Shown here one piece after another: positions 94-63,662 of a DNA stretch of 64,000 nucleotides (position 1 is its first letter; each line of letters opens with the position of its first letter). Location of the stretch: positions 927,868-991,867 of the forward strand of contig ML992507.1 of assembly GCA_010093995.1 (NCBI GenBank), given 5' to 3'. The position numbers and the translations under genes were made by a program. This DNA is from Elsinoe ampelina. Its lineage: Eukaryota. The notes under the pieces are model-generated. The model made no database searches. It saw only the letters and a program-made list of their open reading frames with translations, and had not been told where the DNA came from.

Positions 94-95
94 TA

Positions 96-9190: not shown

Positions 9191-9332
9191 ATACTGGCCT
9201 GCAGGCAGGAAGTGTACATAGCCCAGCAGATCTCCTTGACTAACTTCTTCATACGCTACTTTGGCGCAGCATCAATCCATTCTCATCACCTCCTATCCTC
9301 CCTATCCATCGTTCACCCACCCACCCCACCCC

Positions 9333-10661
9333 TCAAGCCGGCCCAACCCCATCAAAGAAAACCTCATCCAACAAACTCAACATCCTCCTCTGCCCCACCC
9401 ACTGCTCCTGCGCCGCCGGCCTAATCTGCCCAGGCGGCAACACGAACCCAAAACTCCCCGTATCCCTCAACTCAATGGTATAACTCCAATCCGCCTCCCC
9501 GACGGCGTAAACATAATCCCTACTCCCCCCTGTCGTCGGGTACAAGACGGGACACGCGGGGCCGTACGTGAACGTCACGCCGTTCACGCCTCTGATCGCC
9601 GTGGAGGTCAACGCCGCCATGTTCGTCAACTCGCCCGCCTCTTCGGGGATGACGGTGCAGTTGTACCCGTACGGAAACATGATGTATTGCCCGTACGAGT
9701 GCCAGTCGATGAAGAGTTTGATGCCGACTGTGTCGCGGAGGTTGTTGACGAAAGCGACGAGGCCTTGCGATTCGGGTCCGTCGGAGGGGGTCTCGCCGCG
9801 GTACGTCTGGTCGCAGGGTTCCGGGGAGGCGCCGGCGGGGTTGCCGTCCCATTGGAAGGGCCATTGGCGGTTGATGTCGCGGCCGAAGCAGGTCGAGTTT
9901 TGGCCGCCGGGCTGGCGGTTTTTGCGCCAGAGGCGTTCGGTGGTTTGGGTGTAGACGAAGCCTGGAAGGGGGGATTAGTGGGGGATGGCGAGGGAGGGAG
10001 CGGGGAGCGTACCGTCGGGGTTCACGAAGGGGAGGATGTAGAAGTCGTAGCGGTTGAGGAGGGTGCGGACGAGAGTGTCGTTGGATTTGTAGCCGTTGAT
10101 GAGTTGGAGGGTGAGGTATTCCACGACCATGTTTGAAATCCATTCGCGGGCGTGGACGGTGCCGTGCCAGAGGACGGCGGGCTTGCCGGGACCGCTGTCG
10201 CCCCAGAGGTGGAGGCCGAAGATGTCGCGGCCTTCGTAGGAGGTGCCGGAGGAGATCTTCTCGGAGTTGGGGAAGGATGCCTGGAGGTCGTCCCAGTAGG
10301 CTTGATGATCGGCGTAAGGGTGGTAGCTGTCGAACCAAGATAGGTCGTCTACCTGGCGCTTGTAGACGTTCTTCACCTCAGATTCGGCGGTGATGGAATC
10401 TCCGAGGTTCTCATGCATACACTCATAGTCGAGTCCGAGCTTCTTGAACTTGGATAGCTCTGCAGGAGACACGGCAATGTCGAGATGCTCGGCTTCTTCA
10501 GCCCAGTCGTCGAAGGAGATGGCAGAAAGCTTGTCGTGGAGCTTCTCCAAGTCATCTTGTGCCTTGACACGCAGGACCTGCCATCCGTCGTAGGAGAGCT
10601 TACTGGCTGCTGCGCCGGAAGCGAGCGCCGTGATCAGTAGACCAGCGCCAAAGAACTTCAT
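9333..10661 (-). CDS. Secreted zinc metallocarboxypeptidase, M14A (carboxypeptidase A-like), 2 exons
   Basis: Signal peptide, propeptide ending KR, HAREWIS, NPDG, DWHSYGQ and TIELRD motifs; intron ~9962-10010. Confidence 0.93.
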
Positions 10662-11305
10662 TGTGAGATGCAGAAAAAGAACTTACTCTGAGTTGAGAAG
10701 CACGAGAACTTGACCTACATTCCCTCTTTGCCCCTCTTTGTGACTTCACTGTAGGCATTAGGAAGATCTATGCGATTTGTACTGCAACTGGCAGGTCTGC
10801 TGTGGGTGACCTTCCCAATCGACACTGGCAGGCCATGGCATTTCTTGCGTCGGGCCACGTTTACCCGCAGATAACGATTGATTGATGATAGTGGGCGCGA
10901 GAGCACCATAATCTGCAAGTCACGGTGGAAGAAGGTAGAGGGAGCATGAGAAGCAAGATGAAGAGCGACAGATGTTTGAAAGGGATGTGGAAGGACATCA
11001 AGGTAGGAGTCGTTTCATGGCGTGATCTGCATGCCGAGGCTCCGAAGTCTCTGGCACGTGACTAGCAGACCAGACCTCCTTTGTCTTCTGCACATGGACT
11101 AATACCGGCCGTCCAATAGCTGTGGTAGTGTGTATGTCAAGCCTCAAGATCATATGCGACCAACACGGGCATATGATCTGTTCTAAGAACCGACACCACA
11201 TGAATCCTTCCTTTCCCCCAAACATGACCTTCCCAGAAGCATAATCGACTTCGCTTTCGAATACATTCGCCATATCCCTTAGACGAGCAACCTTCATACT
11301 GCCCC

Positions 11306-12169
11306 TTAGGTTATACTGCTGAACACTTCCACATACATGTCCGTCCATTCTTGCTCCCACCCATGCAAACCCCTCGTCGGCTCCCACCCCAGCTCCCTCG
11401 CTCGATCTGCCTTCACCCGTTGGTCAGCCGCCAACGACTCTATCATATCCTCCGGATAGTCCGTCCCATCAGCCCACTGTCTTTACAGAAACACTCCTCA
11501 CCTCCTTGATTTGCAACTTCCCACACCTCACCCCAGCCTCCGCCAGCCTCCCAGCCCACTCCTTCCCCGTCAGCTCCAACACCTCAGCACAGAACCAGCC
11601 CCTCTCGCCAGACGCCGGGCCATTCCCCTCAAGCACCCTCTCAAGCAATAGCGCGAACAAATCTGCAGCATCCTTGCCATCCATGCCCGCACCTCTTCCC
11701 GCCCCATCACCAAGATAACTCCAATACCCCTTTCCCACACAATACCCCACCAGCCCCAGCATCATCCCATTCACCTTCACCACCCCCGTCCCAAACCCGA
11801 GAATCTCCGGCAACATAACAACACACGTCCTCAACCCCGTCCGCTTCCCCGTTTCAACGACCACCACATCCGTCTTCCGCTGTGCATTACCCCACACCTC
11901 CTCCCTCTCCTCGAGCAACGCATACCCACCTCCCTATGCGAATACACGCTCGTGTCCACGACCCTTTGCTGATGGGGCGATGGCTGACGTCGCTGGTCCC
12001 GCGGAGGTGAATGAATGTAGTAGAAGTGGTCGTCGTGGGTGGCATCGCGGGTGGTGATGGAGAGGGAGAGGGCGCGGAGATTTGCTGGTTGGTATTGTAG
12101 ATGGAGTTGTGAAAGGTTTTTACCGGTCCTGAGGGAGGGGGGGGGGGGGGGGGGGTGGCGACTTACCAT
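11306..12169 (-). pseudogene. Degenerate NAD-dependent epimerase/dehydratase-like (extended SDR) relic
   Basis: ATG|GTAAGT at 12169 with upstream TATATA. Fragments in different frames: QRKTDVVVVETG...PEILGFGTG, YLGDG...DAADLFALLL, and RVKADRARELGWEP. No N-terminal Rossmann motif seen. Confidence 0.6.
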
Positions 12170-12473
12170 GGCGATCTTCCTCACGTTATATATACCGGCG
12201 CAGTATTTCATAGCATAACATAGACATACAATTACCGGACCTCTGTCATCGAACCACGTTCACAGGTCAAGTATCGCTACGGACCAGACCAAGAGGACTA
12301 TGTCTGGGAGACAAAGTTTGAAGTCGGAGACTTTTGCGGAGAGAGTTGCTCCGGCAGGGTCAGGGGGGACGAACGCAACTATGCAAGAAATGATCAAAAA
12401 GTGCTTGTATCCGAGTTATGCTCCGTGAGTTCTGGTTCCCCACGGACATGATTGTGCGTGTCCCGTGTTTGTC

Positions 12474-14144: not shown

Positions 14145-15183
14145 TTGACCAGACGGATGCTCCTGAGGAGCGAGAGGTAGTGTTCGGGTTTACGAGCGCT
14201 AAGTGCTAACAGCATTAATCTGTTGTCAGATGGATACTGGTGACCAGAAAGGGTGAGGGGGAGCGAGACCCAGACAGCAAGATACGCAGCCGGCCGAAGA
14301 GTTGGATGAAGGAATAACAAGAGAAAAGAGGCAGAAGATATTGTACCCAGCCTGCAAAACTCGGACGAGCAAGATCGAACGTCAGGACACACCGAGGATC
14401 AACGACGATCCGGGGACAAGCCTTGAGCAAGCATGACAAGATGGCTGTCCTGTGGCATGGCGGGAGCTTGGTTGAGCTTAGACACAACCTTAGCGGGCGG
14501 CATCGTGAGTTGCAGAAGTTCATTGTGAGATATGATTGATCGAACGGTTCAGAGTTGGGAAGACGGGAGCTCCTTGACGTAAGGATCTGCGTTTAAGCTG
14601 ACGGCCTATCCGTCGAAGGTGGACCAAGGGACCAACTTTGATCTCTTGCGGCTTTATTCCTGTGACGTGCGCAGGATATTTGCATGATCCGCCCGATACC
14701 GATTGACGGAGTACATCCCTGGAAGATGCGTCGGCATGGGAAAGATGGGTCTTGGCTAATGATAGGACTGAATTTTCGAGAACAGCAAGTAAAAATTCGA
14801 AACAGGGCGATAGCTACCATTGATCTTTCTGGATCTTCTGCATATTTGCCATATAATTCAAAGAAGGTTCGATACAACGCCAGATCAGATTATGCCAGAA
14901 GCATCGTAGAGCGATGAATCGTGATTGTGCATGTAGAAAACACGTGACGAATCTACACTCGCGGGGTGAAGTGATGCGGCTCCGGACGTCGGAGGTCCGA
15001 GCTCCCATCACATCCCCGACTCCGCGATTGATTGATTGATTGATTGCCAGACAGACACAGGCACAACCCAGCACACCGCACACAAGGCAAATACACCCAT
15101 CGAAGCCTCACTCGAGTTCCACTCCCCATCCTACACGTCGAACCATGCTCACAACCACCATCCCGCCATAAAAGCCCACCTCC

Positions 15184-16008
15184 ATGGCGCCCTCACCCAC
15201 ATCCACGCGTTCTCCCGAATCACCCGCACCTCCCTCCACCCCATCCCCGACAGAAGTCATCATCCACGTCTACGACCTCCTGCCCGTACGTCCTCTCCCT
15301 CCACCGCCCTACCCCCCTCCCTGCTCTCCCCACTAACCCCTCCAGCCCTCCCGCCTCTCCTCCCTCCTCTGGCTCCTCTCCTGCCCCCTCGTGCACACCT
15401 CCCTCCACCTCCCCCCGTCCCCCCACGAACTCGCTTTCGGCGGCCACCCCCACCCTCACCTCACCGGCGTCTACACCTCCCCCGTCCTCCAACCCCCTCC
15501 CGGCGCCACCCACCGCACGACCCTGCACCTCGGCCAGACCCACCTCCAACCCTGGGAACTCGCCTCCCTGATCGAAGAAGCGGCCGCCGCGTTCAAGGGG
15601 ACGGAATACAACCTCCTCACGCGGAATTGCAACCATTTCACGGACCACGTCGCGCGGCGGCTCACGGGCCGGGGCCTGCCCGGGTGGTGTAACAGGGCGG
15701 CGGCGGTGGGGTTGGCGCTGCCGTGTTTGGTGCCCGGGGAGTGGGTGAGGGTGCCTGTTGCGGAGGTGGAGGTGGGGACGGATGGGGAGGGGGAGGGGGA
15801 GGGAGTGGATGAGAATACTGCGATGTTGGTCGAGGGGCAGAGGGGAGGGGAGAGGGGGAGGAGGAAGAGTTTGGCTACTGTGTCGACGGGGTTGAGTAGG
15901 GAGGGGACCCCGCCTGTGCGGGTGGTGAGTTTGAGGGATGCGGAGGGGAGGGAGTTGCCTGTTGCGGAGAGGGCGCCGGTGCCGGGAGTGGTGAGGAGGG
16001 TGACCTAG
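15184..16008 (+). CDS. PPPDE/DeSI-family deubiquitinating/desumoylating peptidase, 2 exons
   Basis: VIIHVYDL, catalytic HTS and YNLLTRNCNHF motifs; intron ~15286-15345. Confidence 0.88.
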
Positions 16009-16146
16009 GAGGGGGGAAGGGAAGGGGATTAATGAGTTATGCTTGGATATGGATACCCTTTTTGCGAGACAAGCCAGGGATGTAAGGCTGGTAACGATTT
16101 GGTTTTCATATGAGCGTCGTTTAGATACGTGATATACCCTTCTATG

Positions 16147-25335: not shown

Positions 25336-26108
25336 GAACGAGCAACGCCGAAACGACCATGGCCGCATCGATACAGGCCATTATAATGTACTTTTACAAA
25401 AATGCCGAGCAACAAAAGAGCCGGCATACTTTGCGCTACACAGAGCAAGACGTCACATCGTCTCGCCGGAGGCAGATTGTCCAGGTTGAGCTTTCAAGGC
25501 TCGACCACGTCCCTTTTCTTCATACCGTTCGACCAAAAATTGCGATGCATCATAGCAGGCGAAGAGCATGAGCATTTGATGTTTTATTGACTTTACGTTT
25601 TTTGTTTCTGTTTTCAGCGGTCAGGTATGACGGACCTAGAGAGAAGGACTGGGTCATTAGTCGTGAAGACGACATGGACGTCAAGGATGCCACTGCCGCC
25701 GGTCAAAAGAGGGTTTAGAAGGAACCACGGTGGTTCAGGGCAGATTGATGACCAAGTAGAACTGATAGGCAAGGAGGAATGTAATCATAGCCGGCCTGAA
25801 GATTCGCGAGACTCTGGGCCGAAATTTAAACACAATGTGCCCTCTTGTGTGATTACAGTGATCTTTTGCTTGCCCTGTGCAAATTGACCAAAAGACGTTT
25901 TGAACCATGTCGTGAACTGCTGGTCCTCTCTCGCACCGTGAACATGAGGGGGAGACCAAGAGGAGCTTGAATCCCACGATGAAGCTTCCCGCGACGTCAT
26001 TTGTTGACCTTCTTCTTTGAGACTTCGACACCTATCCCACTTTTCGTTTCTCAATTGATCTTTTGTTTTTCACACAATTAGTCGTGCGATTGATTTCGAC
26101 CACCCAGC

Positions 26109-26961
26109 ATGTCCATCGCCAGCGTCAAAGGTCTCATAGACCTCTCCCAGCCCGCTCTATGGCGTCCGTCTGCCCTGCCCAACCCCAATCCCCAAAACTA
26201 AACCCTCCCAGTCTCAGCAGCTAGCATCGTCTTCAACCCAACCTTCTGGAAGTAAGTCCCCCCCCTATCCTCCCCCTCCTTCTCCCACTAACACGCCCAG
26301 CACCGCCGCCCGCTCAGGTAACCCTCTCCCCCCCCTTCCTTCCCTCCCTTTCCCCTTCCCACCCTAACCCTCCCTCCCTCCCGCAGAATACCGCCACAAA
26401 ACCATCACCCGCCTCGCCGGCGGCAACTCCCTGTACGGCTGCTACCTCCTGGCCATCACCATCTTCACCCTCGGCATCGTGCGCGACCTCATCTACGAAC
26501 GCGCGCTCCGCACCCAACCCACCTCCCCCTACCTCGTCGGGCCCCTCGCCAAAACCGTCGCGCTGGCCCTCCTCGCGGGGGGCAACACGCTAGTCCTCTC
26601 CTCCATGTGGGCGCTGGGCGTCACGGGGACGTATCTGGGTGACTATTTCGGGATCCTCATGGAGGAGATGGTGACTGGGTTTCCGTTCAGTGTGACGGGG
26701 AGTCCGATGTATTATGGCTCCACGATGAGTTTCCTGGGGACGGCGGTGTGGTTTGGGAAGCCGGCTGGGGTGGCGCTGACCGTGTTGGTTTGGGTCGTGT
26801 ATGAGGTTGCATTGAGGTTTGAGGACCCGTTTACCGGGATGATTTATGAGAGGAGGGAGAGGGAGAGGGGGGCTGGGGCCGTGCCGAAGGGGGGTAGGAT
26901 GGAGCCCAAGGGGGGAAAGACGGAGCCGAGGGGGGGAAAGGTCGGGCCGAAGGAGTTGTAG
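26109..26961 (+). CDS. OPI3: Phosphatidyl-N-methylethanolamine N-methyltransferase, 4 exons
   Basis: FNPTFWNTAARSEY (reconstructed across introns 26164-26211, 26252-26300, 26318-26386), LGVTGTYLGDYFGILM, PMYYGSTMSFLG and FEDPFTGMIY. Confidence 0.93.
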
Positions 26962-27810
26962 GGGAGGGTGGTGCAGGGGTGAAGGGGTGAGGAAGATGGG
27001 AATGATTTGAGGGTCGGTAAGCTGGGGGACGGTCGAGGCTGAGTGAGCTCAAAATGAGGAGGAGGGCAAGAGAAGAGAGTACGGAGAGCCAGACAGGTTT
27101 GGGCACACAAAAAGGGGACAGGCAGAAAAGGAAGACTGCATGGAGCAGACAAAATAGTGACTGTCAACTATGCGACTCGAGCGTTTATGTCCTTGTTGTA
27201 TATACAGAGATACCACCTCGTTTTGACATGAATGGCACAGATATAGATATTTATACATTCGCTCCAGCTCATAGAGATTCCGCTTGACACTAAAGACCTC
27301 TCGGCCATATTGAAGGTTGCCGACTCAGTAAGCTACCGCATTCATCTGTAGCTTCTGCTTGGCCCTATAGGCCACGTTGACGGCTCCGGTCTGGCTCCAT
27401 GGCAAGTAATGCAGCGCACGAGTGCATGCGTCTTCTTGCCTCCGAGACTATTGACGCCGCAGCACTATCCATCGAGACAGGTCCGGGACAGGCCCAGAAG
27501 GCATGCCTCGTGGAACGGCTCCAAGGAGACGGGAAAGCATCATGTTACTGTGGCTCATACGCACGAGCAGCAGCTATGCATGAGGGCTTGAGCGTTCATC
27601 CCAGCGGATTCTTCCCACCTTTTGGCCATGTCGTCCACTGGGCTACTGTTCTGGCTTCGCTCTTGCTCTGAGAGAGGTCTCTGCGTAATCCATGAAGCGG
27701 TCCGCCTGCAAGAACTTGCTGTCCGCAGTGTCCTGGCTATGGACGTTGTACCATGCGGGACGTTCAAATCTCGAACTCTGCACAGTTATTGGATCATGAG
27801 TCTTGCTCGA

Positions 27811-31466: not shown

Positions 31467-31540
31467 TCAGCACGTCTGATGTCCCGGCTGTACTAGTCCC
31501 TAGGGCCATCCACGGCACGACCAAGCGATGATGCAGCGTA

Positions 31541-31700
31541 GACGGCAAAAGGCGAGCCTGTACAAAAGGAAAGGCGGCAAAAGGCGAGCTTGTACAAAAG
31601 GGAATATGGCAGAAGGCGAGCTTGTACAAAAGGAAAGATGGTAAAAGGCGAGTTAGTACAAACGGAAAGACGGCAAAAGGCGAGCTTGTACAAAAGGAAA
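31541..31700. repeat. Minisatellite, 5 x 32 bp (consensus GACGGCAAAAGGCGAGCTTGTACAAAAGGAAA)
   Basis: Units start at 31541, 31573, 31605, 31637 and 31669; substitutions only, no spacers. Confidence 0.95.
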
Positions 31701-31857
31701 AAGCAATCAAACAAAAGTGCCATCACAGAGGAGCTGCCACGATAGACAGCTCCATTCCGTGGCCAAATGAGCAGCCACAGATCGGCTGCCGAAGTAAACA
31801 GCTTCAATAGTCGCCAAATCACCATTAAACCAACTTCTGTACAAATGCTCAAGTGAT

Positions 31858-41258: not shown

Positions 41259-41793
41259 GGGTAGCTGAAAATTACCTGAATCATCCTTTGTCAATATTCG
41301 ACGGCTGGATGAAGTGTTCGTCGATGTCGTATGAACCTGCTCAACCCTGTTGCACGGAACGAGAGTGCTCCAATGATGGTTCCAGTTTCTCCTGCGCTGG
41401 TTGTGCTCCATCGGTGCCGTGACAAAGTCATCATGGGCAGTCCGGAGTAACCAGCGGTGACGCGCGCAGGACGGACATTCCGCAACCTGGTCATGTCACT
41501 GACCTCGAAATACCGGGAAAATATCCGAATGACCCACAAAGCGTAGCAAGCAGGCAGCTGAATCGTGTTGATATTGAGAGGTTCAGAAGAAGATGAACTC
41601 TCAACCCCACCACAACCCCTGTCCATCCCCAGCTTCAGGCCAAGTGTGAACCACGTCACTGCTGAGCTCATCACTCTCGATCAACCATCAACCATCAACC
41701 ACCATCCATGTGTAAAACCACACCCTCCCCTCCCCTCCTCCATCTCTCCCCGCACTTCCCATCCTCATCCGACCCCCTCATTCCATTCCGACC

Positions 41794-46828: not shown

Positions 46829-47009
46829 GACCGTCTCAATGGGTCAAACGACACAGCATGGTCAGATAGCGTATATACCCTCAGCATCAACGAACGAATG
46901 GTCATTACAGCGTGGTTCTTCATGCGACGTCGCTCTATGCAAAGATTTCTACGTCTCCTTCTTCTGTCCCATTATGCACAACCCAACATGCCCTTCCTCA
47001 CGTCTACCA

Positions 47010-49607
47010 TCACGACGCAGACAACGCCAGACACGCGTCCACCGCCATCCCAACCCTACCTTCCTTCATCCGGACAACATCACTGATAACATCCTTGTCC
47101 AAGTCAGGGAACATACCCTGCAAAGTCCTGATCCAGTCAGCACATACTCCCCCACCCCTGTGTCACTGGCTCTGTGAAAGTAATACTAACTCGACAACAA
47201 CCCTATGCTCCTCACTCCTTATCCGCGTCGCCTCCGCCTCAGCCACACTAGCCTGCCGAATCGCCTCCTCGTGCTCCCTCCCCCCCGGTCCAGCAGGTAC
47301 ACCCAGCAACTGCCCCGCGCCCTCTTGACTCCGCCTCCCCGCCTCCCCTCGCTGAGACCGCGTTCGACTCCCGCCAAACATACGCAGGACTTCGCTGTCT
47401 TCCCTCGCGCCCTGGCCCTGCTGGCTCTGCGCCCCAGGGAACCCAGGCCGCGTCGGACTCCGCTGGGCCCCTCCTGGCCTAGGCGGCTGCGGCGGCGGCG
47501 TTTCGTCGCTGAACATCCTCCCGATGCCGCTGAGGGGTTTCTGGATCGTGCGCAGCAGGCCGGACGCGAGATCGTCCGCCGCTGATGACGAGGAGGTGGT
47601 GGTGTCCTGCGATGAGCCGAGGCGGCGGGAGGAGGTGCGGCGCGGGGAGGCGCGTTCGGCGTCCATGCTGTTTCGTGGGGTGACTTCGGGGCGGGAAGGG
47701 GCGGATTTTTCGGAGAGGTGGGGGAGGAGAGGGGAGGTGTCTGGTGCGGTACTGGAGGAGGCTGGCGGGAGGGGAGGGATGGTGTTGGGGTCCAGGGAGG
47801 TGCGGGTCTCGTATTCTTCTGCTTTGTGGCCTTCGGCGATTGCGGAGACGGCGGCTTCGACGTTGGCTTCGAAGTCTTCGTTGGAGATGGTGAGGTTGGT
47901 GCGGTCGAGGTTTTCGACAAAGGAGATGACGCCCATGAGCGAGGAGATGTAGTAGCCTGCTTCGCCGCCGAGTTTGTCTTGGTTGCGGAAGCGGAGGATG
48001 TATTGGACGTTGCTGACGAGGTGGGTGGGGTTGGCTTTGAGGACGGTGTAGATGAGGAGGGGGACGAAAGAGTCGGCGGATTGGTCGGTTTTGTTGTTCT
48101 TGAGGAAGCCGAAGATGACTTTGCAGCAGTTGAGGATTTGGATGACTTTGTCGCGTGGTGCTCGGTAGGAGTTGATCTTGAGGAGTTCTTGTTGAGCGAG
48201 GGAGAGGAATTTCCGACCTTTGTCGCCGACCGAAGGGATATCGAGATGTTCTTCTTTGATCCAGCCATATATGCGAATCTTCTGAGCGATCACATCATCT
48301 CGTTCCACGTCTTCCTGATGCTGACCTCTCCGACCAGGACCGCTCGTCGACGCGGCATTCGCCCTTGCTCGGCGGGTGCGAGCGCTCGAGATACTCTCGA
48401 CTGGAGGTATTGCAGGCGAGAATGTTTGCGAGTACAGTCGATTCATGACGAGCTTCTCCATGCCTTCTCGGGCATTGTCAAACTCGGCGTCCGAGACTGT
48501 TCGCCACACATCGCACTGCGACATCTTCTTCGAGATAAATTCCAGGAAATCGGAGATGATCTTGACTTGCTCGTGGACCTGCCATTGCTTCTTCCCAAAC
48601 TCATTCAAGAAGGATCGCAAGAAGCGAGCTACTGGGTCTGCTGTCCGATGTCGAAGCTGCTCGAGGAATCTGTGAAAGTCGAATGGGAGTGCTGGCTCTG
48701 GGTCTGGTGAGGGTGGAGGCGGTTGAAAGACGGAGTTGCCCCCTGGACTCTGCGGGGGCAAGGCATCCGGTTTCTCTGATGCTGGAGGGGGTGGAGGGGG
48801 CAGACCTTCCGTGATCGACGGCGGCCGAGCCTTGGAAGCATTGAAGTTGTAGCTGTCCCGCGAAGCAGGCCTTCGTAATGAAGGTGATTTGGGCGACCCT
48901 TGCGACTCCGGTTCCAGGCTGGACCCACGAGGTGGAAAGAAGACAGGCGAGGCTATCTCCATTCGCGGCGACAGAATCTCCTCTTTCCCGAGACCTTTCC
49001 CATCCTCTCCAAATTGGTCCATTATGCTCTGAATCTCGGACCGACTCTCGTTGTCGCTCTGATGTTGATCCACTACAGAGTCGTCCTCAGGAGGGTGCTT
49101 CTCGTCGTATTCCTGGTACTCTGGTTGCTTCCCTGCTGCTACGCTTTGGAGTCCAGCATCCTTTGGAGGCGGCGCTGGTGGAGGCGGGGAACTGATACGA
49201 GGTTTGTCTCGGATCGAGAGCGACAGAGGCTCCCTCGTAGGTTTACTTGCCATGTCCTTGACAGAGTCACTTCCGCTTTGTGCTCCAGCTATTGCGAGAT
49301 TGCCGCCATCGGGTGTTGACGCTTGTGTAGCCTCTCCTGCTTCTGCATCCTGCTTCTCCGGCTCTACCAGTTCCTGGGCTTCAGCGCCAGATCCTTCAGC
49401 GAAAGGATTATCCTGTGTTGGTTTCGGATATTCTCCCCCCGTCGAAGTATTGGCAACCGCTCCAGCATCTTTCGTAACATCGTCTGGGAGACTCGTACTA
49501 TCCAGAGGTTGTTTGCCGGAGCTGGTCGCTTTGTCGTCCCTCATCTGCGCTGCTTGCTGGTGCGTGCTGCCTCCCGCGCCTGCATCTTGCGCATCCGTAG
49601 TTGACAT
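47010..49607 (-). CDS. VPS9: Rab5/Vps21 guanine nucleotide exchange factor with C-terminal CUE domain
   Basis: EGMEKLVMNRLY, YRAPRDK, SADSFVPLLIY, GGEAGYY; terminal exon GMFPDLDKDVI...AVDACLAL*. Confidence 0.93.
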
Positions 49608-51933: not shown

Positions 51934-53288
51934 ACGAGCAGAAGACCTAGGTACGTGAAAGTCGCACATTTCATGTTTCCAATACACCCCACATGATGAC
52001 TGAAGCGGACTCCGGTCTGCAATCAGATACTGTTGAGAGTCGACTTGCAGTGATGAGGAGTCCATGGGTATCTGCCTATTGAACACTCTCCCTGACTTGT
52101 CAATAGACTCGATGATTGCTTAAAAGGCAAGTCTGATGGGCTCGCTGTTATCATCTCGGTATATGGTGTTGTTGCCTATTTATCTGACTTGCTCACAGAC
52201 AATACCTGTTGTCACGAATAAGAGTATTCCTCTCACGACTACCAAAGCTTCAGTAGTCAATGTATGTGCCCAAACTTGAATCCATGAAACTGATCCTTCC
52301 TGTACTACTCCTTCGTGAAGCATCTCCTCCCTTACATGCACCAAACAAGCACCCGCCGTACACACCCTCCCCCGTCCTTCCTCCTTCCGCCGCCCCACCC
52401 CGCTTCACCAACGACATCGACATCAACCACTACCTCCACGCCACCACCCTCTCCTTCGCACCCCAGTACAAATTCCCTTCGACTCCCGCCCTTAGCCTCC
52501 CCTGCCACCGCATGACCTTCGCCAAACCCACCAACACTCCTATGTCCGGCCTCATGGTCACCAACGACGATCTAATCCGAGGCAGGCGGGCACAACGGCC
52601 TCCACGGGCGGTAGGACTTTTTCATCGCTACTGCACGGGCGGACTCGGCTATCAGCATGGTAGCGGGGATAGTCCAGGTGTCAGGGGGCGTATCTTCTTA
52701 TGATTACCAAGGCAGATTTTGTGTGAGGGGGATGGGGTTTACATGCTGAATCTGGGTTCGGATGGGCGCTTGGTCGGCATTTGGCCATTTTGGTGGGGTT
52801 GGTATGGGTTCCAAGAGGGGCGAGACGGAGTGGGGTTCTGCGGTGGGGTGGGTGGTGGTTTGCTCGGAAGGGGATGGAGTGGGTATGGGAGGGGAGGTGT
52901 AGGTGAACATTTGGGTAGGCTTGTTGAGTGGGTTTCTCTTTGCCTCTTGGTGCTGGTGATATGAGGTCGACTCCATGCCGGCAGTCTGCATTTGTGCGCA
53001 CTCGACCTCTGTCTCGGAGCGCGGTCAGAAAGTCGCGGTCGAAAAACCAAGATTTCAAGGAAGATGGCAGTATTCGTATCCTTGATCTTGCTGCATTCGT
53101 ACGCTCCCATGCGGCTATAAACGGGTTCTTCCTGCCCTCTTGACAAGCATACGCGGTTATTGCGAGCTTCATGGCGGTCTGCTTCCCGAATGTGACTGAA
53201 AATTCTAGACCTTGACACCGATTTGGATCCTACATGTTGAATATTCCTCCCCTGCCGACTTCCCCTGCCTTACCTCGCCTTGCCCGAT

Positions 53289-54717
53289 CTAAGCAGGACT
53301 CGCCCCTCCCTTCCAATACTTGCTCGGCAAAAACGGCATCTTGCTCACCACCGCCTTCCTCACCTTCCCTCTCACCTTGACACCCACCTCTGTTCCCGCC
53401 TTATGCAGTCCATTCTTGATATACCCCATGGCGATGTTCTTCCCCAGACTCGGACTCGGGCATCCACTCGTGATCGTCCCGATCTTCGTGCCATCCGCGT
53501 TGACGATCTCCGCGCCTTCTCTGGCCGGTGCACCCTCCACGATGAGACCGACTCGCCGCCGCTCTACCCCTGCGCCTCCTTTGCTAGCGGGCGTGAGTTG
53601 TGGGATGATCGTCTCGGCGCCGTTGAAGTTGGCTTGTTCGCGTCGGGATTTGCCTATGATCCAGCTCAGTCCGGCTTCGACGGGGGTGGTGGTGTCATCG
53701 AGGTCGTGGCCGTAGAGACACATGCCGGCTTCGAGGCGGAGGGAATCGCGGGCTCCCAGACCGGCAAGGCGGATCTTATCGGGTCCTGCTTTGGACAAGA
53801 GGAGAGAGGTGAATTCTTCGGTTTGGTGCGGTGGGATGGAGATTTCGAAGCCGTCTTCGCCCGTGTAGCCGCCTCGACTGGCGAGGAGGGGTTCTGAGGG
53901 GCCGGAGGGGAGGTTGACGGTGATATAGTGGGAGGCGCCAAAGTAGAAGGATTGCAGGTCAAGGGAGGAGGGGTCAGCGAGGATGCTTGACAGAATGGAG
54001 GCGGAGAGGGGTCCTTGGAGCGCTACGAGGCCTTGGTCTTTGAGGGGAGTGATGGTGACGGACGGCTTTCCTGAGGAGTTCCACGATGAGAGGGCAGACG
54101 ACAGAAATGCCCAGTCCTTTTCGCGGCAGCCGGCGTTGGTGACCACGTAGAACTTCTCAGGGGTGAGACGGGTGACGACGGTATCATCCACAATGCCGCC
54201 CGTCTTCGGATGTAGGAGAGCGGACAGCGTTGATTGATGCGGTGGAAGTGTGGAAAGAGAAGAAGGAGTGAATGATTCCAGAAATTCAGTGACTCCTGGA
54301 CCTTCGACATGATATTGTACCCTATGGTTATTAGTCAAGAACTACGAGAAGTTCGGCATTGGCTTACATATGGCTCACGTCAAATATGCTTGCCTTTTCT
54401 CTAGTCCACTTGTGCGATTCGCCCACACTGAGATCGCTGTACTGTACCGGCATTTCGTACCCTCCGAATGGTACCATCTTCGCTCCATGCTTGATGTGCA
54501 GATCGTACAATCCCGTCCGTCCGAGTGCTTTGCTGGGGAGCTCAACATCTGCTCGCTGAATAGCAGTCGTGTGAAAGGTGCTTCGAGTAGCTACAGTCAG
54601 AAGTGGAATTGCTTGCTTGTAGTTGTGCACGCCAGATCGTGGGAGGCGAGATGCTTGCCGGCCGGCAACGACTCCCAGCACTTGGTGAGCCCGCCTCGGA
54701 ACCAATCTGGTCGCCAT
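53289..54717 (-). CDS. GCV1: Mitochondrial aminomethyltransferase, glycine cleavage T protein, 2 exons
   Basis: Arg-rich presequence; [49 protein letters not shown]. Confidence 0.95.
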
Positions 54718-56367: not shown

Positions 56368-56462
56368 ATCAAAAAGCTTTTTGTGCATATGAGAGAAGAA
56401 GCTGGTCTATACCCCATGTACAGGGCGAAATCATTCCCATCATGTCTTCATCTTCCCCGTTC

Positions 56463-57132
56463 CTATCCCTGCTTCAAATATCCCTTACTCTCCAAATACT
56501 TCACAATCTGCACCACCGCCTCCTCCACACTCGTCTTTGCCGAATCAATCACCACCTCCGCCTTGTCAGGCGCCTCATACGGCGCACTAATCCCCGTAAA
56601 ATCCTTAATCTCCCCGGCCCTCGCCTTCTTATACAACCCCTTGGGATCCCTCTTCTCCGCCTCCTCAACCGAAATCTCCACGTAAACCTCCACAAACGGC
56701 AGGGCCGAATCCGCCGTGTTCCCTGAGCTCTCGTGCAGCTTCCTCGCCTGCTCGCGATCCGCCCGGTACGGCGAGATGAACGACGTCAAAGCAATGGTGG
56801 AGCTGTCGGCGAAGAGTTTCGCGACCTCGGCGATGCGGCGGATGTTTTCGTTGCGGTCTCTCTCCGAGAAGCCGAGGTCTTTGTTGAGGCCGAAGCGCAC
56901 GTTGTCGCCGTCCAGGCGGTAGGAAGCGAGCCCGAGGTGCAGGAGGTGTTGCTCGAGGGCCGTGGCGATGGTGGATTTGCCGGAGGCGGAAAGGCCGGTG
57001 AACCAGATTGTGAGGCCTTGTTGTTTGCGGAGGGAGTTGCGCTCGGTGCGGGAGAGGCCCGGGTGCCAGGTGATGTTGCTGGGAGGGGTTAGGGGGGTAG
57101 ATGGAGAGGGAGGGGGGGTTTTACGTGGCCAT
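56463..57132 (-). CDS. MET14: Adenylylsulfate (APS) kinase, with an 8-nt first coding exon
   Basis: ATGGCCAC|GT...CAG|CAACATCACCTGG gives [46 protein letters not shown]. Confidence 0.95.
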
Positions 57133-57272
57133 GTTGGGTGGGGTAGGAGGTCAACTGATTTGTGAAAGGACAGGCGCTGCGGAGGGAAGTCTTGTTTGAG
57201 CGATTGGTTCACAAGACAAGTGGAAAGTGAAGATGGAGAGAGTGTTGATTTTTGCTGAGGTCAATGGCAGAC

Positions 57273-58708: not shown

Positions 58709-59170
58709 TACCCCCTCCACTCATGTATTTGTGCGTATGTAAAATGTACACAATCTCAAGCAGATCGGCTGTAGAACAGTCCAGGTCCTGACTCGACAAT
58801 GCATGTCACATCCAAACCAAAACTCTGTTTGATGTAGCTCCCTCCATCGTGGCTAGCTCCGATGCCGCTTGCTTTGAGGAGATGAACCCCGCCATGTTCC
58901 CCAGACTTCCATCCATCCTTCACTCAAGCCTCCCACCTCATGACGTCGCTCACGTGTAGATCTCGCAGATGCCATCTAATATGCAAGATCCGCCCGCATT
59001 CACATGGTAATCGAAGTGCCGCCTCGTCATAGCCCCAATGAATAGCTCAGGTCTGGCCAACATTTCTTCTCTGCCTCCTTCCTTCTCTCACTCACCTCTA
59101 CACTCATCCCCCGTCCCATACCACACTCCCCTCCAACCTCACCCACCAAACCCTCCCACCACCAGCCACC

Positions 59171-60447
59171 ATGCCTCCCCCTTCCGCCACCCCCCACGAC
59201 CTCAACTGCCTCACCATCACCGAACTCGAACACCTCGCCGCCGAACGCATGGACAAACAAACCCGCGATTACTACAACGAAGGCGCCGACTCGGGCTCCA
59301 CCCTCCGCGAAAACATGTCCGCCTACGCCAAATACCGCATCCGGCCCCGGATCCTCCGCGACGTATCCCGCATCTCCACCACCGTCCCAGTCCTCGGCCA
59401 AACCAACAGCGTCCCCCTCGGCGTCGCGCCCACAGCCATGCAATGCCTCGCGCACGAAGACGGGGAACTCGCCACCGCGCGCGCCTGCCGCGACCGCAAC
59501 GTCATCATGGGCCTGAGCTCCTTCGCGACACAAACCCTCGAGGACGTGGCGCGGGAGAACGGCGACAACGCGCACGTGCTGCAGCTGTATCTGTTCGAGG
59601 AGAGGGAGCATAGTCGGAAACTGATACGGCGCGCGAGGAAGGCGGGGTACAAAGCCGTGTTTCTCACGGTTGATACGCCGATGCTCGGGAGGAGGAATTT
59701 GGAGATCAGGAACCAGTTCAAACTGCCTGGACATTTCAAGGTGGCGAATTTCGCGGACGAGGAGGAGGGGGAGTTCATGGGGGAGGAGAAGGGGGTCAGG
59801 GCCAATGAGGGGCGCAAGAGGGAGAGGAGGGCGAGTGAGGCCGGGTATACGGAGGGGGAGGAGAGGGTTTTGCCTCAGGGTCAGATTACGTTTCATACCC
59901 ACGCGCCGAATCCGACGTTGTGTTGGGAGAGGGATATTGAGTGGTTGAAGAAGGAGTGTGGTGGGGAGATGAAGGTTTTTGTCAAGGGGGTGGCGACGGC
60001 GGAGGATGCCTTGTTGGCGGTGCATCATGGCGTGGATGGGATTGTGGTGTCGAACCATGGGGGGAGACAGCTGAGTGAGTTCCTTACCCATTTGTCGTCC
60101 GAGAAGCGGTACTGACAAGCTTAGATGGCGCACTTGCTACCATTGATGCTCTTCCGGAGATTGTCTCTGCCGTGCAGGGCAAAATACCTGTGCATGTTGA
60201 CGGCGGCATCAGACACGGTACAGATATCTTCAAGGCACTCGCGCTGGGCGCGGACTTTGTCTGGATTGGACGACCAGTGCTTTGGGGTTTGGCGTACAAG
60301 GGACAAGCAGGAGTCGATCTCTGCCTACGGCTGCTCAGCGACGAGTTCCGGCTATGCATGGCACTCGCTGGCGTCACGAACGTCAAGGACATTTCCAAGG
60401 ACTACTTGGTCAAATTGGATGCGTCAGGCTTTGTCAGTAAGCTCTAG
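59171..60447 (+). CDS. Peroxisomal FMN-dependent (S)-2-hydroxy-acid oxidase (glycolate oxidase/HAO family), 2 exons
   Basis: [43 protein letters not shown]-terminal SKL (PTS1); no cytochrome b5 domain. Confidence 0.92.
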
Positions 60448-61672: not shown

Positions 61673-62041
61673 GATCGACAGGCTTCGGATAGCCGCGGTC
61701 TTTGCGGCTTCTGACTGGTGGGACCTGACAGCTGTGCTGAGCTGGGCTGACGTGAAGGAGGGTAGCTCTTAAGAGCGCTGAGGCATCTGTCAAGGCAGCA
61801 GCATACCAGACGACGGAATAGCAATCGGAAATTTCGGAGATGTGGAAGAAGAGCTCGGAGTGAGGTTTAGGACAGCAGAGTTGAAGGCCATGCCGCGTCC
61901 ACGAACAGAAAAGTGGGAAGCTACGTCACTTTAGGACATCGGATGTTCGGGACGGACGCCTAGTTGCATATCGGCTTCTAGGGCATGTGATTTCGACCTC
62001 AAGTTCTCTGAATCCCCGCTTGAGAGGTCTCATTGATAGTC

Positions 62042-62517
62042 ATGTCGATCCCAAATAATGAGGCGCTCCAGAAGGTAGGCAAATGTTGTGCTCTGAACGG
62101 CAAATGCACTGACGTGCACTCAGCTCCTCATTGAGATCGAGCAAAAAGCTAGCTTCGCGCAGCAGCAAATGGTCATTGTCAAATCGCAGATTGATGCCTC
62201 GAAACGGGAAATCCGGATGATCGATTTGATGAACAAGGAGATCGATTCGCTACCTGGAGATGCAAAGCTTTATGAAGGCGTTGGGAAGATGTGAGTCTCG
62301 GCATATCTGGCGGCAAATGGTGTTCTGGGACGCCACCTGACCATATCAAAGGTTCGTCGCCAGCCCGACTGCTGATGTGAACACACGTCTGGTTAAGGAG
62401 AAGAAGGATCTTAACGCCAAGCTGGATAATCTGGATAAGAAGTACACCTTCCTGGAGACAACATATAAGAACAGTCAGGAGCATCTCGACAAGGTCTTTA
62501 AGAATGGAGGCAGATGA
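62042..62517 (+). CDS. PFD1: Prefoldin subunit 1, 3 exons
   Basis: MSIPNNEALQK|LLIEIE...YEGVGKM|FV...FLETTYKNS; coiled-coil/hairpin/coiled-coil layout. Confidence 0.85.
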
Positions 62518-62806
62518 AGGAGCGCCCGCGAATGCAACGACATAGCGCCGAGGCAGTAGAGTTACAGACGAACGTCAAGCCCATTAGGCTGTTAATGGCA
62601 ACCTAGCGAGCCGGCACCCAAATGAGCAGCCTCTCAACAGAGCCACAGTCATACGCCAAGAACCTTCGCTGTTCTCTTTGAGGATTCTCAATCCGGCCTG
62701 GCGACACACTGGCCAACAGAGCTCGATGCAATCTTCAAAGGACCACGATGTCGGGTCAATGCAAGGGTGGAGATATCATTCCCGCCCAATATGTACAAAA
62801 CACTGC

Positions 62807-63662
62807 CTACCAAATCCCAAACCACTTCTTCACCTTCTTCCTCTCCCCTCCAAAATCCACATACTCCTTCTCCCCCTCACCCCTCCCCTCTCCCTCCGCG
62901 GCCCCCAGCAGCGCCTCCCCACCCTCCCTCCCCCTCGCCTCCTCCGCCTCCGCCAACGTCTCCCCCTTCTTCTCCGCCCTATACGTCCAACCTCCCAACC
63001 CAGGCTCATCATCAATCCCATGCGCCTTCCTAAACTCGCTCCTCTTCCTCACATCATCCACTTTCGCCTCTCTCTTCGCGATCGTCTGCTCCGTGATGAA
63101 ATCCGTATGCATTTGGTAGACCTCCAACCAGCGACCCAGGAAGCGGAAGGGGTGGGAGAAGAAGAAGTTGTTCGGCGGGAGTTGGTCCCGATAGGGCGTT
63201 GTGTGGAGGAAGTTGGTGAGGATGGTGAAGAAAGCGAGGGAGACGAGGACGGCCTGGGGACGTTAGCTGGAGGCTTTAAGGGGGAGAAGGGGAGGGGAAG
63301 GGACGCACGAGGGTTATGCCTGTGTGGAGTGCTCTTGAAGTTAGGAATTTGTGCATGAAGGAGCCTTCGGGTGGCATCATGTGCGGGTATTGCTTGGTCT
63401 TTTGCACTTCGCGCTCTTTTCGTGATAGGGGCGGGCCTGGATACGCGGGTTTGGCAGTGCGTAGTCGGGCTGGGTGCGAGGGTGGGCGGAACTTGTCTGG
63501 TTGTTCGAGCACACGGGCTTTGATGGGCTTGACTGTAGATGCCGCGCGAGATGGCTGGCGGAAAATGGTACTATTGCGCAAAGGCAATCGGCGGAGGGTG
63601 AGCATCCTTTCGGCTGCTAAGGACTGGCGGGCCAGTGCCAGCGAAGTCTGTAGAGTTGACAT
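62807..63662 (-). CDS. Conserved hypothetical protein, probably mitochondrial membrane, 2 exons
   Basis: Arg-rich presequence, LEQPDKFRPPSHPAR, YPHMMPPEGSFMH, one TM segment, DDVRKRSEFRKAHG, KKWFGIW end; start could be 63605. Confidence 0.75.

What the first reader, a model, noticed from the sequence alone, without database searches (positions are those of the whole stretch)
9290..63310. About 13 bipolar C-rich to G-rich skew islands that ignore gene orientation
Seen: ~1-kb islands where the + strand is strongly C-rich for several hundred bp, passes a CpG-rich pivot, then is strongly G-rich. Approximate pivots: 9.65, 11.96, 15.65, 26.58, 32.25, 34.95, 42.13, 47.5, 52.6, 53.6, 56.8, 59.55 and 63.14 kb, with a weaker one at ~46.55. 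Polarity is always C then G, in + genes (DeSI, OPI3, SAS10, DHCR24-like, HAO), in - genes (carboxypeptidase, TSC10, VPS9, GCV1, MET14), in introns and UTRs, and in relic DNA. Neighbouring genes such as GCN20, ASNSD1 and HEM25 show none. Established: a negative-to-positive GC-skew jump marks bidirectional replication origins. Inference: each pivot is a fixed site of a bidirectional strand-asymmetric mutational process (replication initiation, break resection/repair or recombination hotspot), and the arms carry outward-facing G4-prone tracts. Spacing of ~1-10 kb is denser than usual for fungal origins, so the cause is open.
Basis: partly seen in the sequence, partly recalled or inferred. Interest (0 to 1): 0.8.

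Follow-up and report, generated by a model that had tools for sequence, protein, structure and literature searches.

The report
Gene-end-anchored C-to-G skew islands
The striking C-rich-then-G-rich islands are real, but they sit at fixed distances from gene ends and look like an extreme, Elsinoë-specific form of a known but unexplained skew pattern of fungal genes, not replication origins.

Summary
Observation confirmed. The window (Elsinoë, about 99% identical to E. ampelina on one exon) holds 12 strong islands of about 1 kb. In each, the + strand is C-rich (skew about -0.5 to -0.65) and then G-rich (+0.45 to +0.7), with GC of 0.57-0.67. No true opposite-polarity island exists.

The skew is a nucleotide-level effect. 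It is as strong at 4-fold sites, and it is present at 2-fold sites, in an intron and in UTRs.

"Ignores gene orientation" carries no information, because a C-then-G unit is its own reverse complement. Aligned on stop codons, 19 of 22 genes have a G-rich coding strand over the last 200 nt, preceded by a C-rich stretch. Of 10 interpretable pivots, 7 lie 266-360 nt before the stop (P about 1e-5) and one lies at about 460 nt. The other two lie about 330-370 nt after the ATG.

This matches the pattern McLean & Tirosh described in 2011 (coding strand C-biased at 5', G-biased at 3', cause unknown). Here it is hugely amplified, GC-enriched and compact. It is conserved within Elsinoë, absent from outgroups, and it is reshaping proteins.

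Best reading: a transcription-unit-anchored, strand-asymmetric mutation bias of the single-stranded-DNA or R-loop type. The mechanism is inferred, not shown. Replication origins are very unlikely. Recombination hotspots are not excluded.

The parts
9222..10116 (.). Island 1, pivot about 9644, in the 3' part of the --strand M14 carboxypeptidase gene. The pivot is 311 nt before the stop.
   Evidence: HMM segments C 9222-9530 and G 9930-10116. Pfam Peptidase_M14. 4-fold skew -0.44 / +0.69. The roughly 52-nt intron is almost G-free on the coding strand.
11190..12158 (.). Island 2, pivot about 11964. It overlaps a weak ubiquitin-conjugating-enzyme-like ORF on the + strand. The gene model is unresolved.
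   Evidence: HMM segments C 11190-11969 and G 11971-12158. UQ_con hit with E=0.0045 on 11719-12054 +.
15062..16052 (.). Island 3, pivot about 15648. It spans the whole short +-strand PPPDE/DeSI gene. The pivot is 360 nt before the stop.
   Evidence: HMM segments. Pfam Peptidase_C97. 4-fold skew -0.64 / +0.70.
26008..27145 (.). Island 4, pivot about 26604. It spans the short +-strand PEMT (OPI3-like) gene and its UTRs. The pivot is 357 nt before the stop.
   Evidence: HMM segments. Pfam PEMT. The 3' UTR part has skew +0.62.
31814..32759 (.). Island 5, pivot about 32124, in a --strand short-chain dehydrogenase (TSC10-like) gene. The pivot is 266 nt before the stop.
   Evidence: HMM segments. Pfam adh_short. 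4-fold skew -0.76 / +0.61.
34600..35260 (.). Weak island, pivot about 34950, at the 3' end of the +-strand Sas10 gene, about 269 nt before the stop.
   Evidence: Arm skews -0.18 / +0.33. G segment 35050-35260. Stop-aligned profile.
41598..42648 (.). Island 6 (the strongest), pivot about 42120, at the 5' end of the +-strand FAD-binding (delta24-sterol-reductase-like) gene. The C-arm covers the 5' UTR and the first 326 nt of CDS.
   Evidence: HMM segments with skew -0.62 / +0.72. ATG at 41794. Orthologs.
46949..48207 (.). Island 7, pivot about 47474, in the 3' part of the --strand VPS9 gene. The true stop is at about 47010, after a short 3' intron, so the pivot is about 464 nt before the stop.
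   Evidence: HMM segments. Pfam VPS9. tblastn of an ortholog reaches 47013. Ortholog composition.
52269..52932 (.). Island 8, pivot about 52578. No conserved ORF was identified and the gene assignment is unresolved.
   Evidence: HMM segments. No Pfam hit at E <= 0.1. Low-complexity translations.
53246..54065 (.). Island 9, pivot about 53579, in the 3' part of the --strand glycine-cleavage T-protein gene. The pivot is 290 nt before the stop.
   Evidence: HMM segments. Pfam GCV_T. 99.4% identity to the E. ampelina protein.
56432..57267 (.). Island 10, pivot about 56764. It spans the --strand APS-kinase (MET14-like) gene. The pivot is 301 nt before the stop.
   Evidence: HMM segments. Pfam APS_kinase. 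4-fold skew -0.78 / +0.55.
58887..60079 (.). Island 11, pivot about 59539, at the 5' end of the +-strand FMN-dependent dehydrogenase gene, about 368 nt after the probable ATG.
   Evidence: HMM segments. Pfam FMN_dh. ATG-aligned profile.
62777..63716 (.). Island 12, pivot about 63137, in a two-exon --strand gene of unknown family (63276-63671 and 62807-63262). The pivot is 330 nt before the stop.
   Evidence: HMM segments. ORF translations. Codon-usage scores +16.9 and +13.0.

Best explanation
The islands are the local, greatly amplified form of a skew pattern anchored to transcription units. On the coding strand, about 500 nt of C-rich sequence switches to about 500 nt of G-rich sequence. The outer edge of one arm abuts a transcript end. 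In most cases this is the G-arm, which covers the last 270-460 nt of the CDS and 30-180 nt of 3' UTR. In two genes it is the C-arm, which runs from the 5' UTR to about +330-370 of the CDS.

A C-then-G unit is its own reverse complement, so it reads the same on the + strand for genes of either orientation.

The driver acts on DNA, not on protein. On the strand that leaves the pivot 5'->3', A->G, C->T and C->G are favoured, so G comes to occupy about 70% of free sites. This is the signature expected from damage to a strand held single-stranded (deamination of A and C, plus abasic-site bypass that inserts C opposite).

My inference is that this strand is the displaced non-template strand of transcription in termination or pausing zones. 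These would be sense R-loops on the G-arm and antisense or read-through R-loops on the C-arm, possibly self-reinforcing because G-rich RNA stabilises R-loops.

Shown: the anchoring, the nucleotide-level nature, the substitution preferences, the lineage specificity and the effect on proteins. Inferred: the involvement of transcription, R-loops and repair.
For: - Stop-aligned coding-strand skew of 22 Pfam-supported genes: positive in 19 of 22 at -200..-100 and in 19 of 22 at -100..0, and negative in 18 of 22 at -700..-600. Pooled values run from -0.26 to +0.33, with the switch near -350.
- Pivot-to-stop distance is 266-360 nt in 7 of 10 interpretable islands (P=1e-5) and 250-470 nt in 8 of 10 (P=5e-5).
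- Isolated skew segments also obey the rule. G segments sit at the 3' ends of the + genes Sas10, luciferase-domain, V-ATPase C and Mito_carr, and a C segment sits at the F-box 5' UTR.
- The skew persists at 4-fold sites, -0.44..-0.78 in left arms and +0.45..+0.81 in right arms, in an intron and in UTRs.
- Site classes. On the G-rich coding strand, R2 sites are G 0.94 and Y2 sites are C 0.32. On the C-rich coding strand, Y2 sites are C 0.91 and R2 sites are G 0.22. Background is 0.60 for both. At 4-fold sites G is 0.70 or C is 0.75.
- The same polarity, involvement of 4-fold sites and UTRs, an amino-acid effect and a near-flat A/T profile are described for unicellular fungi by McLean & Tirosh 2011 (PMC3315797; Results and Discussion read). 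C>G near the TSS in plants and fungi is described by Fujimori 2005 (PMC555766; abstract).
- A weak version is seen in 51 orthologous genes from other fungi: -0.21 at about 900 nt rising to +0.34 near the 3' end.
- In human, 3' GC skew in closely packed genes coincides with R-loops and termination (Ginno 2013, PMC3787257; abstract).
- No homology or shared motif exists among the islands.
Against: - No expression, TSS, poly(A) or R-loop data could be obtained. Read laying gave nothing and no whole genome is held.
- Two strong islands (FAD4, FMN_dh) are 5'-located. Islands 11964 and 52578 have no secure gene model.
- In long genes the C-arm lies next to the G-arm, not at the 5' end as in the published tripartite pattern.
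- A simple model in which the non-template strand is mutated in proportion to transcription flux predicts the opposite arrangement if the antisense RNA comes from neighbour read-through. An extra assumption is needed, namely that R-loops form only in the distal, G-rich part of each RNA.
- Many genes have only weak skew, and what selects the strong ones is unknown.
- McLean & Tirosh found only very weak correlation with expression in C. albicans (R about 0.07-0.10). They also report skew negatively correlated with GC content, whereas these islands are GC-rich.
- GC enrichment and faster protein evolution in the arms would also fit biased gene conversion.
- Only one 64-kb window was examined.
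Confidence: 0.6

Rival explanations
1. Each pivot is an evolutionarily stable meiotic double-strand-break or gene-conversion hotspot. Heteroduplex on the left carries the broken chromatid's + strand and on the right its - strand. If G.T and G.G mismatches are repaired towards the donor more efficiently than A.C and C.C, the observed bipolar skew and local GC rise would accumulate.
For: - There is a local GC3 peak: GC at 4-fold sites is about 0.85 against 0.51 in the background.
- Protein divergence in the arms is about 1.9x faster within the Elsinoë clade.
- Island positions are conserved within the genus.
- My derivation from the known mismatch-repair hierarchy (recalled knowledge, not a tool result) gives the right polarity.
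- Exonic hotspots exist in another Dothideomycete (PMC5844332; passages).
Against: - Pivots track stop or start codons at fixed distances, which is not expected for breaks that in fungi map mainly to nucleosome-free promoters (recalled).
- Strand-symmetric GC-biased conversion is contradicted at 2-fold sites, where one class moves towards A/T: C 0.32 and G 0.22 against 0.60 in the background.
- Damage to resected single strands predicts the opposite polarity (my reasoning).
- In Zymoseptoria, gBGC is 'extremely weak or absent' (section heading and passage).
- The heteroduplex model predicts A >= T on the G-rich strand, but T >= A is seen.
Confidence: 0.15
2. The composition is selected at the DNA or RNA level rather than produced by mutation bias. 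Candidates are G-rich 3' ends acting as R-loop or G4 terminators in a very compact genome, C-avoidance or CTP economy along transcripts (the adaptive idea of McLean & Tirosh), or a long C-arm/G-arm RNA duplex.
For: - G4 motifs are concentrated in the arms.
- Tail-to-tail genes here have inter-stop gaps of only 139-392 nt, so efficient termination matters.
- The predicted folds pair the two arms massively: 134-278 cross-arm pairs out of 237-287.
- The adaptive hypothesis is in print.
Against: - Hundreds of synonymous, intronic and UTR sites per island would all need to be under selection.
- The arms override protein constraint, with implied skew at codon positions 1-2 and faster divergence.
- The cross-arm pairing is largely compositional. 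Arm-wise shuffles give similar energies, with z from +0.3 to -4.2 in 6 islands.
- Many equally compact neighbours lack strong islands.
Confidence: 0.12
3. Each pivot is a bidirectional replication origin. The negative-to-positive skew jump reflects leading/lagging-strand mutational asymmetry.
For: - The sign of the jump (C-rich then G-rich on the + strand) is that of origin jumps (established knowledge, recalled).
- The substitution preferences on the G-rich strand (A->G, C->T) resemble single-strand exposure of the lagging-strand template.
Against: - The skew returns to about 0 within about 500 bp on each side instead of persisting across a replicon.
- There are 12 islands in about 55 kb, one per about 4.6 kb.
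- Pivots lie inside coding exons at fixed distances from stop or start codons.
- Isolated single arms sit at gene ends.
- AT skew is weak relative to GC skew.
Confidence: 0.03

Closest known systems
[quoted passage not shown]
   Same: - The coding strand is C-biased upstream and G-biased at the 3' end.
- The G-bias is strongest around the stop codon and extends into UTRs.
- The pattern is present at 4-fold sites and shifts amino-acid usage.
- A/T show little positional effect.
- The cause is unresolved.
   Different: - Here the amplitude is extreme, with arm skews of about +-0.4-0.7, and a single base occupies 70-75% of 4-fold sites.
- The unit is a compact C500/G500 pair with locally raised GC. 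They report skew negatively correlated with GC content.
- Only a subset of genes is strongly affected.
- In long genes the C-arm adjoins the G-arm rather than sitting at the 5' end.
- Two islands sit at 5' ends.
- The organism is a filamentous Dothideomycete, and the amplification is specific to the Elsinoë clade.
[quoted passage not shown] 2005, PMC555766; abstract read)
   Same: The 5' UTR and the start of the CDS are C-rich on the coding strand. Pooled skew is -0.28 just upstream of the ATG, and the effect is strong in FAD4 and FMN_dh.
   Different: That skew is a narrow peak at the TSS. Here the C-arm is about 500 nt long and is followed at once by a G-arm. Most islands are anchored at 3' ends, not at TSSs.
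Terminal GC skew and R-loops at 3' ends of closely spaced human genes (Ginno et al. 2013, PMC3787257; abstract read)
   Same: The coding (non-template) strand is G-rich at the 3' ends of tightly packed genes. The tracts are G4- and R-loop-prone.
   Different: - R-loops are untested here.
- The G-arm lies mostly inside the CDS, upstream of the stop.
- It is preceded by an equally strong C-arm.
- The 5' skew has the opposite sign to that of human CpG-island promoters.
Replication-origin skew jumps (bacterial origins; mammalian skew 'N-domains'; recalled, not read here)
   Same: The sign of the jump, and a G+T-enriched strand leaving the switch point.
   Different: The scale is about 1 kb rather than tens to hundreds of kb. 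The skew decays to zero, the islands are too dense, and they are anchored to gene ends.

Membership tests
Gene-anchored opposite GC skews of fungal genes (McLean & Tirosh 2011) | The coding strand is G-biased at the 3' end, around the stop codon, and relatively C-biased upstream. | tested here: met
   19 of 22 genes are positive in each of the last two 100-nt bins before the stop, and 18 of 22 are negative at -700..-600.
Gene-anchored opposite GC skews of fungal genes (McLean & Tirosh 2011) | The skew extends beyond the CDS into UTRs or promoters and is present at 4-fold degenerate sites. | tested here: met
   UTR parts are -0.57..-0.70 at 5' and +0.50..+0.91 at 3'. 4-fold sites are -0.44..-0.78 and +0.45..+0.81.
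Gene-anchored opposite GC skews of fungal genes (McLean & Tirosh 2011) | The skew shifts amino-acid usage along the protein. | tested here: met
   Implied skew at codon positions 1-2 in FAD4 is -0.54/-0.25, then +0.50..+0.62. Outgroups are near 0 or negative at residues 217-270. The VPS9 C-terminal delta is +0.25..+0.44 in the clade against 0.02+-0.15 elsewhere.
Gene-anchored opposite GC skews of fungal genes (McLean & Tirosh 2011) | The layout is tripartite: C-bias at the 5' end, an intermediate middle, and G-bias at the 3' end. | tested here: inconclusive
   Short genes fit. In the long genes VPS9, GCV_T and M14 the C-arm adjoins the G-arm and the 5' end is unskewed. FAD4 and FMN_dh carry both arms near the 5' end.
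Replication-origin skew jump | The skew of each sign persists across the replicon arms (many kb) and does not depend on gene structure. | tested here: not met
   Arms are about 200-780 bp long and then return to about 0. Pivots are tied to stop or start codons.
Replication-origin skew jump | Initiation of DNA synthesis at the switch point. | not testable with these tools
   No nascent-strand, OK-seq or ORC/MCM data were available.
GC-biased gene-conversion hotspot | A strand-symmetric advantage of G/C over A/T alleles. | tested here: not met
   At 2-fold sites one class rises (0.91-0.94) while the complementary class falls below background (0.22-0.32 against 0.60).
GC-biased gene-conversion hotspot | Coincidence with elevated recombination. 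| not testable with these tools
   No recombination or polymorphism data were available. Read laying gave nothing.
R-loop-forming GC-skew regions (Ginno 2012/2013) | A G-rich non-template strand at the gene's 3' end in closely arranged genes. | tested here: met
   G-arms lie on the coding strand at 3' ends. Tail-to-tail inter-stop gaps are 139-392 nt.
R-loop-forming GC-skew regions (Ginno 2012/2013) | RNA:DNA hybrids detected on the skewed region. | not testable with these tools
   No DRIP data were available.
Repeat or mobile-element family | Sequence homology between copies. | tested here: not met
   All-against-all blastn of the 12 islands gave only short low-complexity matches, plus the overlap of two adjacent extraction windows.

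The most novel reading that the evidence does not exclude
In the Elsinoë lineage, overlapping sense and antisense (or neighbour read-through) transcription at the ends of tightly packed genes has set off a self-reinforcing loop. G-rich RNA stabilises R-loops. The displaced strand then suffers deamination and abasic-site bypass that add more G. Two back-to-back R-loop zones therefore run away to about 70% single-base occupancy of free sites, stay fixed in position for the life of the genus, and drag protein sequences with them. If so, these islands are a sequence-only fossil record of where R-loops form. They would also give a tractable system for solving the unexplained gene-end skew of fungi.
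Probability: 0.25. Interest if true: 0.7.

Novelty: new variant of a known kind. Interest (0 to 1): 0.5.

Why it matters
The cause of the opposite 5'/3' GC skews of fungal genes was left unresolved by the paper that described them in 2011. In most species the effect is weak and visible only in averages. In this Elsinoë window it is so strong that single genes show it unambiguously. It has sharp pivots, fixed arm lengths, and a readable set of preferred substitutions (A->G, C->T and C->G on one strand).

That makes the question testable in three ways: with comparative genomics of sequenced Elsinoë species, with strand-specific RNA and R-loop maps, and with polymorphism data that separate mutation bias from biased fixation.

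There are also practical consequences:
- The process measurably reshapes conserved enzymes. The arms evolve about 1.9x faster, and amino-acid composition shifts towards P/T/S/H/L and then G/V/E/R/W.
- The islands open spurious ORFs in several frames, which is a hazard for gene prediction and for codon-usage or selection analyses in these plant pathogens.

Tried and rejected
- **Whole genome.** None is held, so nothing beyond this window could be tested.
- **Sequencing runs.** 14 were listed with no RNA holder on record. Read laying returned nothing. There is therefore no expression, splice, TSS/poly(A) or polymorphism evidence.
- **Repeat or mobile-element idea.** Rejected.
- **Shared pivot motif.** None was seen in the +-80-nt printouts or by blastn. 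No formal motif search was run.
- **Edge-walking to delimit arms.** Too noisy, so it was replaced by the HMM.
- **'Left border' idea.** I considered that pivots lie about 300 nt to the right of each gene's left border whatever its orientation. I dropped this once stop alignment showed 3' anchoring in both orientations and two 5'-anchored + genes.
- **Selected RNA hairpin between arms.** The pairing is mostly compositional.
- **Protein-level proxy for GCV_T.** Nearly uninformative, because the skew there is synonymous.
- **Association of strong 3' islands with tail-to-tail gene pairs.** All 6 with a known neighbour fit, but by my hand count the hypergeometric P is about 0.11, which is not significant.
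- **Pfam at E <= 0.1 on 53 ORFs under the three unassigned islands.** This gave one weak UQ_con hit, and a Prefoldin exon outside the islands.
- **Codon-usage model.** Only weakly discriminating.
- **Earlier-findings look-ups.** Nothing relevant.
- **Literature searches.** The searches were 'Elsinoe'+'GC skew' (1 irrelevant hit); 'Elsinoe ampelina'+'genome'; the citing search for the 2011 paper (4 papers); and 'GC skew'/'convergent genes'/'R-loop'/'termination'/'fungal'. None found a description of such islands in filamentous fungi.
- **Not seen.** The supplementary figures of McLean & Tirosh were not viewed.

Full report
**Observation.** The window is 53% GC with near-normal CpG (observed/expected 0.91). 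Sliding skew and a two-arm scan show 12 sites where the + strand goes from strongly C-rich to strongly G-rich within a few tens of bases. Skews over 400 bp are -0.34 to -0.63 on the left and +0.28 to +0.70 on the right.

At delta >= 0.8 there are 10 C->G switches and no G->C switch. The G->C calls at lower thresholds are island edges. The 34.95-kb pivot is weak and the 46.55-kb one marginal.

A 3-state HMM finds all 12 pairs and only 2 close G->C juxtapositions. Shuffles give 0 to 3.3 pairs with no polarity.

Pooled on pivots, C rises from 0.26 to 0.49 and G falls to 0.12 in the left arm, and the right arm is the mirror image. GC is 0.60-0.65 and AT skew stays small. G4 motifs sit almost only in the arms and face outward. 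The islands share no sequence and no motif, so they are not copies of an element.

**Organism.** The proteins encoded here are closest to Elsinoë. A glycine-cleavage T-protein exon is 99.4% identical to E. ampelina. Other genes are 90-95% identical to E. batatas and 81-90% to E. fawcettii.

**Level at which the skew acts.** The skew is as strong or stronger at third and 4-fold sites, -0.44..-0.78 on the left and +0.45..+0.81 on the right. It fills a roughly 52-nt intron and the UTR parts of the arms.

Two-fold sites add detail:
- Where the coding strand is the G-rich one, A/G sites are 94% G but C/T sites are only 32% C.
- Where the coding strand is the C-rich one, C/T sites are 91% C and A/G sites only 22% G.
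- Background is 60% for both classes.
- At 4-fold sites one base takes 70-75%.

So on the strand that leaves the pivot 5'->3', A->G, C->T and C->G are all favoured. A strand-symmetric GC-biased process cannot do this.

**Symmetry.** A C-rich-then-G-rich unit is its own reverse complement. Finding the same polarity in + and - genes therefore says nothing about independence from genes. It is what a rule written on the coding strand would give.

**Anchoring.** I aligned the coding-strand skew of all 22 Pfam-supported genes on their stop codons. Nineteen of 22 are G-rich in each of the last two 100-nt bins, and 18 of 22 are C-rich at -700..-600. The pooled curve runs from -0.26 to +0.33 and crosses zero near -350.

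Two gene models then needed correction. In VPS9 a short 3' intron precedes a CUE-domain exon. Island 63137 lies in a two-exon --strand gene. After these corrections, 7 of 10 interpretable pivots lie 266-360 nt before the stop (P=1e-5 under uniform placement) and 8 of 10 lie within 250-470 nt (P=5e-5).

The two exceptions, FAD4 and FMN_dh, have their pivots 326 and 368 nt after the ATG, with the C-arm starting about 200-280 nt upstream in the 5' UTR. Isolated HMM segments follow the same rule. G segments sit at the 3' ends of four + genes and a C segment sits in a 5' UTR. Islands 11964 (weak UBC-like hit) and 52578 (no gene found) remain unassigned.

**Known context.** McLean & Tirosh 2011 (Results and Discussion read) reported that in most unicellular fungi the coding strand is C-biased at the 5' end and G-biased at the 3' end. 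In their data the pattern is strongest around the stop codon, reaches into UTRs, is present at 4-fold sites, affects amino-acid usage and shows nearly flat A/T. They left the cause open between mutational regimes of transcription and CTP-avoidance. Fujimori 2005 (abstract) described C>G at plant and fungal TSSs. Ginno 2013 (abstract) linked 3' GC skew of closely spaced human genes to R-loops and termination. My searches found no description of such islands in filamentous fungi or in Elsinoë.

**What is unusual here.**
- *Amplitude and form.* In 79 fungal-type metagenome loci totalling 914 kb, the same HMM finds 3.4 C->G and 2.7 G->C close pairs per 64 kb. This window has 12 and 2.
- *Comparison with orthologs.* In 51 orthologs of the FAD4 gene, the pooled skew shows only the weak generic pattern. 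The window's values at +400..+800 (0.65-0.89) exceed the maximum of all 51.
- *Lineage distribution.* The FAD4 island is visible in the implied codon-position-1/2 skew of all five Elsinoë/Sphaceloma orthologs and not in six outgroups. The VPS9 3' island is seen in the window's own protein and its three closest clade orthologs (delta +0.25..+0.44), but not in Myriangium (+0.04) or in 110 other orthologs (0.02+-0.15). Rows shorter than 650 aa were dropped before that count. For the tightly constrained GCV_T the proxy is nearly blind.
- *Effect on proteins.* Relative to outgroup divergence, the FAD4 arms diverge about 1.9x faster within the clade than the rest of the protein (0.61-0.62 against 0.33).

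**Mechanism (inferred).** Joint gain of G from A and of T from C on one strand is the classic outcome of hydrolytic deamination of single-stranded DNA. Bypass of abasic sites by insertion of C, the fungal 'C rule', would add N->G. Both statements are recalled knowledge, not tool results.

The affected strand has its 5' end at the pivot. Exposure of that strand fits three situations: the non-template strand of transcription moving away from the pivot, the lagging-strand template of forks leaving the pivot, or the strand that is *not* exposed by resection of a break at the pivot.

Given the anchoring to gene ends, I favour transcription. That means sense R-loops or pausing on the 3' G-arm, and antisense or neighbour read-through R-loops on the C-arm, possibly self-reinforcing.

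Several weaknesses remain. A simple flux model gives the wrong order of arms unless R-loops are confined to the distal, G-rich part of each RNA. The 5'-located islands need a separate account. No RNA or R-loop data were obtainable.

**Rivals.**
- *A stable recombination hotspot with mismatch-type-dependent heteroduplex repair.* It can also give the right polarity and explains the GC rise and faster evolution. It does not explain the fixed distance to stop codons, it is contradicted in its strand-symmetric form by the 2-fold sites, and it has no support from Zymoseptoria, where gBGC is extremely weak or absent.
- *Selection on terminator, G4 or RNA structure.* This is possible but would need selection at hundreds of silent sites. 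The arm-to-arm pairing is largely compositional.
- *Replication origins.* These are very unlikely given the 500-bp decay, the 4.6-kb spacing and the gene anchoring.

**Verdict.** The process is a strand-asymmetric, nucleotide-level one at stable positions. However, the sites are gene-end-anchored rather than free-standing, and they belong to a known, unexplained fungal pattern, of which this is an extreme, lineage-specific variant. All of this rests on one 64-kb window.

Noticed in passing
window 8978-9333, 16008-16147, 31466-31858, 46828-47010, 56278-56463, about 62600-62807: Tail-to-tail gene pairs have inter-stop gaps of only about 140-390 nt. In each of six such pairs exactly one partner carries a strong 3' island (M14, PPPDE, adh_short, VPS9, APS kinase, and the unknown gene at 62807-63671). 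All 6 strong 3' islands with a known downstream neighbour are in convergent pairs, but by my hand count this is not significant (P about 0.11).
   Followed up: partly
window 47010-47166: VPS9 has a short 3' intron followed by a final exon encoding a CUE-like C-terminus. The long ORF's stop at 47166 is therefore not the gene's stop (ortholog tblastn reaches 47013).
   Followed up: yes
window 11719-12054 (+): An ORF with a weak ubiquitin-conjugating-enzyme match (E=0.0045) has a P/T/S-rich translation that looks eroded by the C-bias. It could be a heavily skewed small gene or a decaying one.
   Followed up: partly
window 9200-10400, 15000-16150, 41560-42790, 47160-48300, 59010-60140, 62580-63810: Inside the islands, stop codons are so depleted that 3-6 long ORFs (100-370 aa) are open in several frames on both strands. 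This is a hazard for ORF-based gene calling.
   Followed up: no
window 1-8400: The first roughly 8 kb are lower in GC (0.41-0.50 up to about 5.4 kb). They have no Pfam-supported ORF of 115 aa or more at E <= 1e-4 and no skew island. The best codon-usage score is for 5554-6336 (-).
   Followed up: no
L058 (metagenome locus, 21 kb, GC 0.56): This unrelated fungal-type contig has many skewed segments (18, with 5 C->G and 4 G->C close pairs). Strong local skews therefore occur elsewhere, but without the one-sided polarity seen here.
   Followed up: no
window 62097-62291 (+): A Prefoldin_2 exon (E=2.9e-6) marks a small + gene just upstream of island 12, convergent with the unknown --strand gene.
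   Followed up: no
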